Part shown: piece after piece, positions 11,319-11,785 of the stretch
Layout: every line of letters starts with the position of its first letter
Numbering within the stretch: the stretch's first letter is position 1
IMG/VR virus record: IMGVR_UViG_2695420889_000011
Coordinates: 1-11,785 of that record
DNA: 11,785 bases
From: a virus
Lineage: Duplodnaviria; Heunggongvirae; Uroviricota; Caudoviricetes
Direction: 5' to 3' (one strand)
The notes under the pieces: generated by a model
The model's input: only the letters and a program-made list of their open reading frames with translations
Told to the model about the DNA's origin: nothing
The model's database searches: none
Position numbers and translations under genes: made by a program

Positions 11319-11339
11319 GAAACCAGAACATGCACACAC

Positions 11340-11461
11340 AAAAAAACCGCTTGCCATGCCTCAATCGGTCAGGTTACATTTCCGCTGCACCTCATAAAAC
11401 GGGCGCCGGGATTCTCAACCCGATACAGAGCAAAGCGCATAACCGCGCAAGCGGTTTTTTT
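11340..11461 (+). terminator. Terminator-like structured element: 15-bp perfect long-range inverted repeat ending in a GNRA hairpin and T-run
   Basis: AAAAAAACCGCTTGC (11340-11354) is the exact reverse complement of GCAAGCGGTTTTTTT (11447-11461). A local hairpin AACCGC-GCAA-GCGGTT (11441-11456) is followed by a T-run. Located 22 bp after the operon stop. Confidence 0.4.
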
Positions 11462-11473
11462 GTGCGTACTGTA

Positions 11474-11502
11474 TTGCCACGTCTTTTTCGCGTCAGAATT
11501 AT
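11474..11502 (+). promoter_or_regulatory. Candidate sigma-70 promoter for the downstream leader and gene
   Basis: TTGCCA (11474-11479), 17-bp spacer, AATTAT (11497-11502). Sequence-only prediction. Confidence 0.3.
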
Positions 11503-11518
11503 GGCGGGGCGTACGGGG

Positions 11519-11633
11519 CCGACTTCGGTCGGACCGGATTCTTTGCTCTCCGGTGTTGAGAACCCTGTACGTCTCGCCACCCCGAGATTCTCAACTCTGG
11601 ATGGTGAGTTATTTCTATCACCGAGCAAAGAGG
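11519..11633 (+). promoter_or_regulatory. Structured 5' leader / riboregulatory element with alternative pairings that can occlude the SD of the downstream gene
   Basis: UUCG-tetraloop hairpin CCGAC-TTCG-GTCGG (11519-11532). Segment CTTTGCTCT...GTTGAGAACCC (11541-11565) is complementary to GATTCTCAAC (11586-11595) and GAGCAAAG (11623-11630), the latter abutting the SD AGAGG (about 11629-11633). It is also complementary to an upstream copy at 11408-11435. Confidence 0.35.
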
Positions 11634-11640
11634 CCACACC

Positions 11641-11785
11641 ATGGCAGACCGCAAACAGCACCGCGCTATCGCGGAGCGTCGTCACATCCAGACTGAAATC
11701 AACCGCAGACTTTCCCGCGCATCACGCGTCGCGCAAATCATGCACATCAATATGCTGCATGAGCGCAGCCACGCACTATCAAACA
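11641..11785 (+). CDS. Hypothetical protein, 5' part only (runs off the window end)
   Basis: ATG at 11641 with SD GAGG 7 nt upstream. Open frame MADRKQHRAIAERRHIQTEINRRLSRASRVAQIMHINMLHERSHALSN... continues to the window edge. Hand-translated; absent from the ORF track because of length. Confidence 0.45.
   Translation, partial: MADRKQHRAIAERRHIQTEINRRLSRASRVAQIMHINMLHERSHALSN

What the first reader, a model, noticed from the sequence alone, without database searches (positions are those of the whole stretch)
11340..11532. 15-bp perfect long-range inverted repeat enclosing 92 bp, plus GNRA and UUCG tetraloop hairpins
A7CCGCTTGC (11340-11354) and GCAAGCGGT7 (11447-11461) are exact reverse complements, so the transcript can either form a small GCAA-tetraloop terminator hairpin or a long 15-bp stem enclosing segment 1 of the RNA switch. 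A CCGAC-UUCG-GUCGG hairpin follows at 11519-11532. This density of stable, tetraloop-capped helices in a 200-bp non-coding stretch is typical of a structured small RNA or processing site rather than a simple intergenic spacer.
Basis: seen in the sequence. Interest (0 to 1): 0.45.

Follow-up and report, generated by a model that had tools for sequence, protein, structure and literature searches.

The report
Prophage RNA immunity cassette with closing helix
The hairpins belong to two already-known phage regulatory RNAs (an IsrK/seqA-type small RNA and a C4/CI-type antisense RNA) that guard an anti-repressor gene in a P2-like prophage. The long inverted repeat is real and conserved, but one arm lies outside the small RNA, so it can pair only in longer read-through transcripts, and its job is untested.

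Summary
Observation confirmed. A7CCGCTTGC (11340-11354) and GCAAGCGGT7 (11447-11461) are exact reverse complements. The repeat is 18 nt perfect and 21 nt with one mismatch, and no simulated sequence produced one like it. The two hairpins are not novel. Rfam places an IsrK-type sRNA at 11387-11461, whose terminator is the GCAA hairpin. It places a C4 antisense RNA at 11497-11584, whose first inner hairpin is the UUCG hairpin.

The window is a P88-like (Xuanwuvirus, P2-like) prophage. The cassette sits upstream of a gene related to the P4 epsilon derepression protein. The C4 loops match sites in IsrK (a1/b1) and over the gene's ribosome-binding site (a2/b2). More than 40 distinct loop/target combinations in relatives all keep this match.

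The left arm lies upstream of the predicted sRNA promoter and overlaps its -35. The long stem therefore needs a transcript that starts upstream and reads through the terminator. In P2-like relatives the arms are conserved across variable flanks, and two flanking pairs covary between two lineages. Lambdoid and P4 copies lack the repeat. The GNRA loop is not conserved (mostly GCCA). No DNA inversion was found, and a classical antiterminator role is excluded.

Best reading: a lineage-specific long-range RNA helix on a known cassette, function unproven.

The parts
11330..11785 (+). Reading frame kept open across the whole cassette (the 'Ash' frame). Its ATG at 11330 is 11 nt after the stop of the upstream ead-like gene, and it runs off the window end.
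   Evidence: 152 codons without a stop. The same frame is open for about 560-800 nt in nearly all of more than 100 related loci. Pfam Phage_ASH matches aa 16-108, which is the isrK+C4 DNA: 19.3 bits here, 27.1 bits in P88, cutoff 26. An in-frame ATG is kept in each P2-like subgroup that has a plus-strand upstream gene, although the junction sequences differ.
11334..11354 (+). Left arm of the inverted repeat. It contains an A7 tract at -47..-41 and overlaps the -35 hexamer.
   Evidence: It is invariant in nearly all P2-like relatives even where the DNA on either side differs.
11351..11380 (+). Predicted sigma-70 promoter of the sRNA: TTGCCA (11351-11356), 18 nt spacer, TACATT (11375-11380). The start is inferred at about 11387.
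   Evidence: Consensus scan. The Rfam isrK model begins at position 1 at 11387. The -10 pattern TAC..T is kept in all P2-like subgroups. The start site is inferred, not measured.
11387..11461 (+). IsrK / P4-seqA-type small RNA. Hairpin 1 is 11387-11406. Hairpin 2 is 11407-11422 and carries target site b1 (11409-11419). Site a1 is 11427-11435. The intrinsic terminator AACCGC-GCAA-GCGGTT-T5 is 11441-11461.
   Evidence: Rfam RF01394, 58.4 bits against cutoff 50, full length. Fold of the RNA alone. Terminator scan. b1 and a1 are complementary to the C4 loops.
11447..11467 (+). Right arm of the inverted repeat: terminator loop, terminator 3' strand, U-tract and six bases beyond it.
   Evidence: The pairs beyond the U-tract covary between lineages.
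11497..11584 (+). C4 / P4-CI-type antisense RNA. The closing stem is 11502-11518 with 11563-11579. The UUCG hairpin is 11519-11532. The second hairpin is 11533-11554, with loop a' core at 11541-11549. The single-stranded b' is 11555-11565.
   Evidence: Rfam RF01695, 76.1 bits against cutoff 45, full length. Found next to isrK in all 17 annotated relatives tested. Inverted repeats I5, I7 and I8.
11582..11643 (+). Leader of the downstream gene. It holds target site b2 (TTCTCAAC, 11588-11595), target site a2 (GAGCAAAGA, 11623-11631) overlapping the Shine-Dalgarno AGAGG, and the start codon at 11641-11643.
   Evidence: Direct repeats D1 and D4 and inverted repeats I2 and I8. a2 and b2 match a' and b' in every specificity type examined.
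11641..11785 (+). 5' part of the 'derepression protein' gene, a relative of P4 epsilon. It is cut by the window end.
   Evidence: Annotated in relatives. The full-length P88 homologue aligns with P4 epsilon at 29% identity over 66 aa, E = 2e-8.

Best explanation
The stretch is the RNA immunity cassette of a P88-like (P2-like) prophage.

An IsrK/seqA-type sRNA is made from its own promoter and ends at the GCAA-loop terminator. Transcripts that leak through that terminator carry a C4/CI-type antisense RNA, which contains the UUCG hairpin. The two exposed C4 segments (a', b') pair with a2/b2 over the ribosome-binding site of an epsilon-like anti-repressor gene and keep it silent. The same C4 segments can pair with identical sites a1/b1 on IsrK, so IsrK can act as a competitor. 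This part is shown by family membership and massive loop-target covariation. My confidence in it is about 0.95.

The inverted repeat is an extra, lineage-specific layer. Its right arm is the terminator loop, 3' strand, U-tract and 3' flank. Its left arm lies upstream of the sRNA promoter. The arms can therefore meet only in plus-strand RNA that starts in the upstream operon and has read through the terminator.

In such RNA a helix of about 21-23 bp displaces the small terminator hairpin. It closes the IsrK domain into a 92-nt loop and takes in the start codon and first codons of the frame that is open across the cassette.

I infer that this helix marks upstream-initiated transcripts for a different fate from promoter-proximal ones. 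The most likely fate is cleavage as a double-stranded RNase III-type substrate, or a block to ribosome entry. My confidence that the helix is a selected RNA feature is about 0.45. The specific downstream consequence is not shown.
For: Identity of the RNAs:
- Rfam hits are above the gathering scores.
- The isrK+C4 pair recurs in all 17 annotated relatives and in P4 itself.
- More than 40 different a'/b' loop combinations each have matching a1/b1 at fixed positions in IsrK and matching a2/b2 in the leader.
- The downstream gene is related to P4 epsilon.
- Published work equates IsrK/C4 with P4 seqA/CI and with the P1/P7 systems (PMC3632133; PMC4825925).

The helix:
- It is not chance.
- The arms are invariant in nearly all P2-like loci, although the DNA upstream of the left arm and the promoter spacer differ between subgroups.
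- 85% of cells are paired, against 35-58% when the partner is slid by 1-3 columns.
- Two pairs just outside the A/U tract change on both sides between lineages, C-G/A-U to U-A/G-C. This gives CAC/GUG in one lineage and CACGU/ACGUG in the other.
- RNAalifold predicts the helix without being told.
- It is in the minimum-energy fold of every P2-like subgroup with pair probability about 1.0. The duplex is -26 to -30 kcal/mol against -8.4 for the terminator hairpin. The window segment folds with z = -4.7.
- The covarying pairs lie beyond the termination point. This argues that any RNA role is in read-through transcripts.
- At least two of the three start-codon bases fall inside the helix extension in every subgroup that has the AUG.
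Against: - All the covariation comes from one split between two haplotype families, so it is one or two evolutionary events.
- The terminator stem itself never varies within the P2-like set, so its pairs are uninformative.
- The loop position opposite the left-arm T varies freely (C, A, T, G) without compensation.
- One metagenomic recombinant (L274) breaks the first flanking pair.
- In P4 and in one group of P4-like satellites the terminator differs and no complement exists. In another satellite group the match is only partial and is not in the best fold.
- In one P2-like subgroup (A5 tract) the upstream neighbour is on the opposite strand, so upstream-initiated plus-strand RNA is not assured there.
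- Single-side changes give no clear G-U versus A-C asymmetry, so neither strand nor RNA versus DNA is settled.
- No transcript, cleavage or probing data were available.
Confidence: 0.5

Rival explanations
1. The repeat is a by-product with no function of its own. The left arm is conserved because it is the promoter (an A-tract acting as an UP-like element, plus the -35). The right arm is conserved because it is the terminator. The complementarity would be inherited from an old inverted duplication and kept or perfected by template-switch (quasipalindrome) mutation or by hitch-hiking.
For: The A7 tract sits at -47..-41 and CTTGCC overlaps the predicted -35. The right arm has an obvious job as a terminator. 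The loop base is unconstrained, and the 'perfecting' A appears sporadically in several backgrounds. Covariation is limited to one lineage split. P4 and satellite copies work without the repeat.
Against: CCGC at -40..-37 and CAC at -50..-48 have no known promoter role, yet they match the terminator strand and the bases beyond the U-tract. Ten of the eleven positions outside the A/T tract are complementary. A second lineage keeps complementarity with different flank bases. Lambdoid copies have strong promoters with no such arm.
Confidence: 0.25
2. The left arm is the 3' strand and U-tract of a leftward (minus-strand) intrinsic terminator. It would stop antisense transcription through the cassette from running into the early genes. 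Its likeness to the right arm would only reflect terminator-like make-up.
For: On the minus strand the arm reads GCAAGCGG-U7. In most subgroups a local hairpin is predicted that ends at the U-tract, although the 5' strand differs between subgroups. The whole-segment minimum free energies range from -6.3 to -11.6 kcal/mol. The A-C mismatches of the long helix would be G-U pairs on the minus strand.
Against: The hairpins are weak and contain mismatches, and any GC-rich 8-mer finds such partners. The terminator scan did not call one. No leftward promoter is predicted nearby. This reading does not explain complementarity or covariation beyond the U-tract.
Confidence: 0.12
3. The two arms are a pair of inverted DNA sites for one protein, for example a phage regulator that loops out or represses the sRNA promoter.
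For: The left arm overlaps the -35, a usual operator position. Two sites read by one protein would also change together, so the covariation fits this reading as well.
Against: No candidate protein or known operator motif was found. The arms are not palindromic in themselves. The right arm coincides exactly with a terminator strand and U-tract, which is an unlikely place for an operator. The A-tract and T-tract lengths differ between the arms in two subgroups (A5 against T7).
Confidence: 0.08
4. The repeat flanks an invertible promoter segment (an inverton), or it acts as a classical antiterminator of the IsrK terminator.
For: Inverted repeats flank a 92-bp segment that holds a promoter. The long stem competes with the terminator hairpin.
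Against: A query with the 92-bp segment inverted found only native-orientation copies among about 1150 E. coli genomes that carry the element. The best full-length match was 82% identical and was shown to be in native orientation. There is no invertase nearby; the only recombinase is the tyrosine integrase at 6039-7040. The left arm repeats the terminator's 5' strand (AACCGC), so the long stem still abuts the U-tract and does not remove the terminator geometry.
Confidence: 0.02

Closest known systems
Phage P4 immunity region (seqA - CI RNA - seqC, followed by epsilon and alpha)
   Same: The order of parts is the same: promoter, IsrK-like seqA RNA with its own terminator, C4-like CI RNA, a second target set over the first ribosome-binding site, then an epsilon-type derepression gene and replication genes. 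Rfam finds isrK and C4 in P4 in the same arrangement, and the downstream protein is related to epsilon.
   Different: Here the cassette sits inside the early operon of a P2-like helper-type phage rather than in a satellite. P4 has no complement to its terminator upstream of its promoter, and its terminator stem differs (GACGC/GCGTC).
P1/P7 immI: c4 antisense RNA with a1/b1 and a2/b2 targets controlling icd-ant
   Same: An antisense RNA with two exposed segments that match one target pair upstream and one over the ribosome-binding site of an anti-repressor operon. Specificity is set by a few bases, as between P1 and P7. The C4 family match is 76 bits, and there are many specificity types.
   Different: In these loci the upstream target pair is packaged as a separate terminated sRNA (IsrK type). 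The regulated gene is epsilon-like, not icd/ant. Processing by RNase P, known for P1 c4, was not testable here.
Salmonella Gifsy-1 IsrK - STnc1160 - orf45 - anrP (PMC4825925)
   Same: A short IsrK and a read-through isoform come from one promoter. A C4-like processed RNA lies downstream, and an anti-repressor is the output. The sRNA family is the same.
   Different: Gifsy-1 is lambdoid. Lambdoid copies lack the upstream arm: the best complement is usually 4-7 nt. The long-range helix described here has no counterpart in that paper.
Lambda sib/tI retroregulation and rRNA processing stalks (RNase III substrates that form only in certain transcripts)
   Same: The logic is alike. A double-stranded stem of about two helical turns exists only in transcripts with a particular origin or extent, so RNAs that share sequence get different fates. 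The stem length here is 21-23 bp.
   Different: This is resemblance only. No cleavage was tested. Here the discriminating arm is at the 5' side (promoter of origin), whereas in sib it is at the 3' side (read-through).

Membership tests
Rfam RF01394 isrK (IsrK / P4 seqA-type sRNA) | Covariance-model score at or above the curated gathering score over the full model | tested here: met
   58.4 bits against 50, model positions 1-77 of 77, 11387-11461
Rfam RF01394 isrK (IsrK / P4 seqA-type sRNA) | Two 5' hairpins followed by a Rho-independent terminator | tested here: met
   Model alignment, fold of the 75-nt RNA, terminator scan. Hairpins 1 and 2 are kept, with compensatory changes in relatives.
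Rfam RF01394 isrK (IsrK / P4 seqA-type sRNA) | Carries sites complementary to the loops of an adjacent C4-type RNA | tested here: met
   b1 at +25 and a1 at +40 match b' and a' in the window and in more than 40 specificity types
Rfam RF01394 isrK (IsrK / P4 seqA-type sRNA) | Transcribed from its own promoter as a discrete Hfq-binding RNA | not testable with these tools
   There is only a consensus promoter match at the expected distance. No expression or Hfq data were available.
Rfam RF01695 C4 antisense RNA (P1/P7 c4, P4 CI) | Covariance-model score at or above the gathering score over the full model | tested here: met
   76.1 bits against 45, model positions 1-87 of 87, 11497-11584
Rfam RF01695 C4 antisense RNA (P1/P7 c4, P4 CI) | Long closing stem enclosing two hairpins, with exposed segments a' and b' | tested here: met
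   Structure line of the alignment. The first hairpin is the UUCG hairpin at 11519-11532. In relatives its stem and loop change together (CUUCGG, CGAAAG, CGCAAG, GCAUCAGC variants).
Rfam RF01695 C4 antisense RNA (P1/P7 c4, P4 CI) | Targets both upstream (a1/b1) and over the ribosome-binding site of the regulated gene (a2/b2) | tested here: met
   Inverted repeats I2, I5, I7 and I8. a2 overlaps the AGAGG Shine-Dalgarno 8 nt before the ATG at 11641. This holds in nearly all of the loop combinations listed.
Rfam RF01695 C4 antisense RNA (P1/P7 c4, P4 CI) | Matured from a longer precursor (RNase P 5' processing) | not testable with these tools
   This is consistent with the lack of a conserved promoter of its own. 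The TTGCCA-17-AATTAT match at 11474-11502 is TCGCCA or absent in relatives.
RNase III processing stem | Double-stranded RNA of about 20 bp or more | tested here: met
   21 bp with one mismatch, and 23 bp with two A-C mismatches in the window. It is the predicted ground state of the long transcript.
RNase III processing stem | Staggered cleavage that depends on rnc | not testable with these tools
   No RNA-end data were available
Invertible promoter (inverton) | Both orientations of the flanked segment occur in populations, with a nearby invertase | tested here: not met
   Only the native orientation was found in about 1150 E. coli genomes carrying the element. No invertase gene is present in the window.
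Terminator/antiterminator attenuator | The alternative helix sequesters the terminator's 5' strand, or otherwise removes the stem next to the U-tract | tested here: not met
   The left arm contains the same AACCGC as the terminator's 5' strand and pairs with the 3' strand. A stem still abuts the U-tract.

The most novel reading that the evidence does not exclude
In Xuanwuvirus-type P2-like phages the IsrK-C4 immunity cassette carries a device that discriminates transcripts by their promoter of origin.

Transcripts that enter from the upstream early operon carry the left arm and an AUG for a frame kept open across both RNA genes. These transcripts are either translated straight through the cassette, bypassing the terminator and the C4 control, or, once untranslated, are locked by the 21-23 bp helix and cut.

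Transcripts that start at the cassette's own promoter lack both the arm and the AUG, and yield the two regulatory RNAs. On this reading the Pfam 'Ash' family would be the translated shadow of two RNA genes.
Probability: 0.2. Interest if true: 0.6.

Novelty: new variant of a known kind. Interest (0 to 1): 0.33.

Why it matters
The two hairpins add nothing new. They are textbook parts of the C4/CI and IsrK/seqA RNAs.

What may be worth a specialist's time is the placement and the extra features. A P4/P1-style RNA immunity cassette sits in the early operon of a P2-like phage, in front of an epsilon-like anti-repressor and the replication gene. In that lineage it carries two features not described for P1, P4 or Gifsy-1:
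- a conserved helix that only upstream-initiated read-through RNA can form;
- a reading frame kept open through both RNA genes.

If these are functional, they would show how one stretch of DNA gives different products depending on which promoter fired. They would also explain how lytic transcripts get past an RNA-based immunity block without an N- or Q-type antiterminator.

The many loop/target specificity types are also a natural set of orthogonal RNA repressor-target pairs.

Tried and rejected
- **Chance.** Rejected by simulation.
- **Inverton.** Rejected. The 100%-coverage hits at 82% identity were alignments running through the native copy, as the three-way alignment showed.
- **Classical antiterminator.** Rejected, because the left arm duplicates the terminator's 5' strand.
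- **GNRA loop as a feature.** Rejected. Most relatives have GCCA.
- **Second promoter for C4** (TTGCCA-17-AATTAT, 11474-11502). Not conserved, and it would start inside the C4 stem.
- **Satellite group C** (CATAAAAAAGAGCT against AGCGTCTTTTTTTATG) as independent covariation. Dropped. It needs two bulges, and the best fold does not use it.
- **Strand assignment from G-U versus A-C asymmetry of single-side changes.** Inconclusive. About four changes favour the plus strand, and two changes plus two standing mismatches favour the minus strand.
- **Minus-strand terminator.** Weak hairpins only, with no promoter to feed it.
- **Search for further independent lineages:**
  - The genome collection gave only 3 loci.
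  - The phage collection holds the epsilon-like gene only in Xuanwuvirus.
  - IMG/VR and metagenomes gave the same two haplotype families.
- **Literature.** Nothing found on this helix or on IsrK/C4 in P2-like phages. The key P4 paper (PMC176756) is not held.
- **Failed scripts.** Two of my own shuffling scripts timed out and were replaced.

Full report
**What is in the sequence**

The arms A7CCGCTTGC (11340-11354) and GCAAGCGGT7 (11447-11461) are exact reverse complements with 92 nt between them. It is 18 nt perfect (CACAAAAAAACCGCTTGC / GCAAGCGGTTTTTTTGTG) and 21 nt with one mismatch (11334-11354 / 11447-11467).

In 200 first-order Markov simulations of the window, no perfect inverted 15-mer within 200 nt appeared. 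The window has four overlapping ones, all from this repeat.

The GCAA hairpin (AACCGC-GCAA-GCGGTT followed by Ts, 11441-11461) and the CCGAC-UUCG-GUCGG hairpin (11519-11532) are as described.

**What the hairpins are**

A scan of the whole window against Rfam gave two matches above the curated thresholds:
- isrK (RF01394) at 11387-11461, 58.4 bits against cutoff 50;
- C4 antisense RNA (RF01695) at 11497-11584, 76.1 bits against cutoff 45.

The GCAA hairpin is the intrinsic terminator of the IsrK-type RNA. The UUCG hairpin is the first of the two inner hairpins of C4, and CuUcGG is the family consensus at that position.

The window matches P88-like phages (genus Xuanwuvirus, P2-like Peduoviridae) and many E. 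coli prophages. In their annotation the cassette lies in the early operon, after cox and a run of small genes. It sits directly before a 76-aa 'derepression protein', a small ORF and the replication endonuclease.

The rest of the window fits this picture: a tyrosine integrase, a helix-turn-helix repressor, DUF4761, and MarR-like and Ead-like genes. The full-length P88 copy of the derepression protein aligns with the epsilon protein of satellite phage P4 (29% identity over 66 aa, E = 2e-8). The window holds only the 5' part of the gene.

**How the known part works**

The two exposed C4 segments are a' (in the loop at 11541-11549) and b' (11555-11565).
- They are complementary to b1 (11409-11419) and a1 (11427-11435) inside IsrK.
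- They are also complementary to b2 (11588-11595) and a2 (11623-11631) in the leader of the derepression gene.
- a2 overlaps the Shine-Dalgarno sequence 8 nt before the ATG at 11641.

One search gave 66 distinct a'/b' loop combinations in the loci I collected. In nearly all of the 46 printed, b1/b2 were matched by 7-8 nt and at least one a site by 9-10 nt, at fixed positions, and the a and b types reassort freely. That is very strong comparative support for these pairings.

This is the logic established for P1/P7 c4 and for P4 CI. Published work states that IsrK and C4 are the structural counterparts of P4 seqA and CI RNA (PMC3632133). In Gifsy-1, short IsrK acts on its own read-through isoform to switch on an anti-repressor (PMC4825925). 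P4 itself shows the same isrK-C4 order.

C4 has no conserved promoter of its own. The promoter-like match at 11474-11502 is not kept in relatives and would start inside the C4 stem. So C4 must come from RNA that reads through the IsrK terminator, as reported for STnc1160 in Gifsy-1.

**Where the left arm sits**

A sigma-70-type match (TTGCCA 11351-11356, 18 nt, TACATT 11375-11380) lies at the right distance from position 1 of the isrK model at 11387. The left arm therefore occupies about -53 to -33, with its A7 tract at -47 to -41, and it overlaps the -35.

It is not in the sRNA.

The left arm also contains AACCGC, the same bases as the terminator's own 5' strand. The long stem would still end against the U-tract, so it cannot be a classical antiterminator.

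**Comparative evidence on the repeat**

I collected about 300 loci.

In every P2-like copy the left arm is kept. This holds even though the DNA upstream of it differs between subgroups (ead-like, SPFH, DNA-binding or other genes) and the promoter spacer differs in some.

Most copies have terminator loop GCCA rather than GCAA. GCGA and GCTA also occur, with no change in the left arm. The perfect repeat of this window is therefore a minority state, and the loop is not a conserved GNRA.

Lambdoid copies (Stx phages, Rac-like and others) and P4 have no upstream complement, usually 4-7 nt at best. One satellite group shows a partial, bulged match that is not used in its best fold.

A divergent P2-like lineage (L138-L145) is informative. 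Next to the A/U tract it has CACGT...ACGTG where the main lineage has CAC...GTG. Two adjacent pairs thus change on both sides and stay paired.

Formal counting on 24 distinct haplotypes gives:
- 85% of cells paired, against 35-58% when the partner is slid by 1-3 columns;
- two pairs with compensatory changes that separate the lineages (a third shows one in a single sequence);
- 0 of 500 shuffles reaching the observed covariation score.

RNAalifold predicts the helix on its own, along with the two IsrK hairpins.

Thermodynamically the helix dominates the long RNA in all P2-like subgroups:
- pair probability about 1.0;
- duplex -26 to -30 kcal/mol, against -8.4 for the terminator hairpin;
- z = -4.7 for the window segment.

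**Limits of that evidence**

- The covariation amounts to one lineage split, and metagenomes gave only the same two families plus one recombinant that breaks a flank pair.
- The terminator stem never varies within the P2-like set.
- Single-side changes do not favour one strand clearly.
- Two inverted sites for a DNA-binding protein would covary in the same way.
- In the subgroup with an A5 tract the upstream neighbour is a minus-strand gene, so upstream-initiated plus-strand RNA is not assured there.

**Alternatives tested**

- An invertible promoter is excluded. A query with the 92-bp segment inverted found only native copies in about 1150 E. coli genomes.
- A leftward terminator at the left arm is possible. 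Weak local hairpins abut the U-tract on the minus strand in most subgroups. However, no leftward promoter is predicted, and this reading does not explain pairing beyond the U-tract.
- The by-product reading (promoter plus terminator, with complementarity inherited or perfected by template switching) cannot be ruled out. I give it about 0.25.

**A related observation**

The frame starting at ATG 11330 lies 11 nt after the stop of the upstream gene and 4 nt before the 21-nt arm. It is open through IsrK, C4 and the start of the derepression gene to the window end.

The same frame stays open for about 560-800 nt in nearly all of more than 100 related loci of all contexts. Pfam's Ash family matches exactly the translated isrK+C4 DNA, and NCBI annotation calls 'ash family' pseudogenes here.

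The ATG is kept in frame in each P2-like subgroup that has a plus-strand upstream gene, despite different junction sequences. In the divergent lineage it overlaps the upstream stop as ATGA. The encoded peptide between the arm and the -10 is not conserved, which suggests that it is openness, not the protein, that is kept.

In every AUG-bearing subgroup at least two of the three AUG bases fall within the extension of the long helix. This leads to the more speculative reading given as the novel case. Upstream-initiated RNA would be translated through the cassette, or otherwise locked and perhaps cut at the 21-23 bp helix. RNA from the cassette promoter lacks both arm and AUG and yields the regulatory RNAs.

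**Verdict**

The hairpins are already-known RNA families in a known kind of immunity system, so most of the finding is ordinary.

The inverted repeat is a conserved, lineage-specific addition that I could not find described. It is best read as a long-range RNA helix of read-through transcripts, with about 0.45 confidence that it is a selected RNA feature. Its consequence (processing or a block to ribosome entry) is inferred only.

Noticed in passing
window 11330-11785 (+), and the same frame in L001-L217: One reading frame is kept open across both RNA genes and on into the next gene in nearly all of more than 100 loci of P2-like, lambdoid and P4-like contexts. Pfam PF10554 (Phage_ASH) matches exactly the translated isrK+C4 DNA. 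In lambdoid prophages the frame is fused in-frame to the annotated Rha-family anti-repressor CDS, which starts upstream of the sRNA promoter (L009 CDS 1452-2300 against isrK 1503-1579). Either the RNAs overlap a real coding frame, or the Pfam family is a translated RNA.
   Followed up: partly
L010 496-684, 865-1047, 1515-1703; also L142 (two modules): An E. coli prophage carries three isrK-C4 cassettes in tandem inside an annotated 'ash family protein' gene. The two copies analysed have different b' loops. One IMG/VR contig carries two cassettes.
   Followed up: no
relatives, isrK +25/+40 and C4 loops: 66 distinct a'/b' loop combinations were found (46 listed), nearly all with matched targets, and the a and b types reassort independently. 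This is a large natural set of orthogonal antisense specificities, probably shuffled by recombination in the invariant blocks between them.
   Followed up: partly
window 11404: In hairpin 1 of IsrK this window has C (GGGCGCC), where every related locus collected has T, G or another base that keeps the pair (mostly GGGTGCC). This gives an A-C mismatch in the stem, flagged 'v' in the Rfam alignment.
   Followed up: no
window 11474-11502: There is a promoter-like match (TTGCCA-17-AATTAT) between IsrK and C4 that would start inside the C4 closing stem. The -35 is TCGCCA or absent in many relatives, so it is probably not functional.
   Followed up: partly
window 11365-11369 with 11419-11423; relatives cols 40-47 with isrK +33..+40: RNA from the promoter spacer can pair with the linker between b1 and a1. 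The window has ATCGG/CCGAT where most relatives have GTCAG/CTGAC. The two states mostly travel together (10 of 11 against 2 exceptions), but this may be linkage only.
   Followed up: no
L300 1707-2231 (-), group B loci (L029, L053, L109, L146-L157): In the subgroup with a shortened A5 tract, a 174-aa gene of unknown function is inserted on the opposite strand directly upstream of the cassette, between the early genes and the sRNA promoter.
   Followed up: partly
L009 1226-1276: A DicF RNA (RF00039, 54.7 bits) lies about 230 nt upstream of the isrK-C4 cassette in a Rac-like E. coli prophage.
   Followed up: no
L001 about 2940-2990 (P88) and the same flank in L158, L160, L182: In the subgroup with an SPFH-domain gene upstream, a strong hairpin (CCGGCCAG-N9-CTGGCCGG) follows that gene about 25 nt before the ATG of the open frame. 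It has no adjacent T-run.
   Followed up: no
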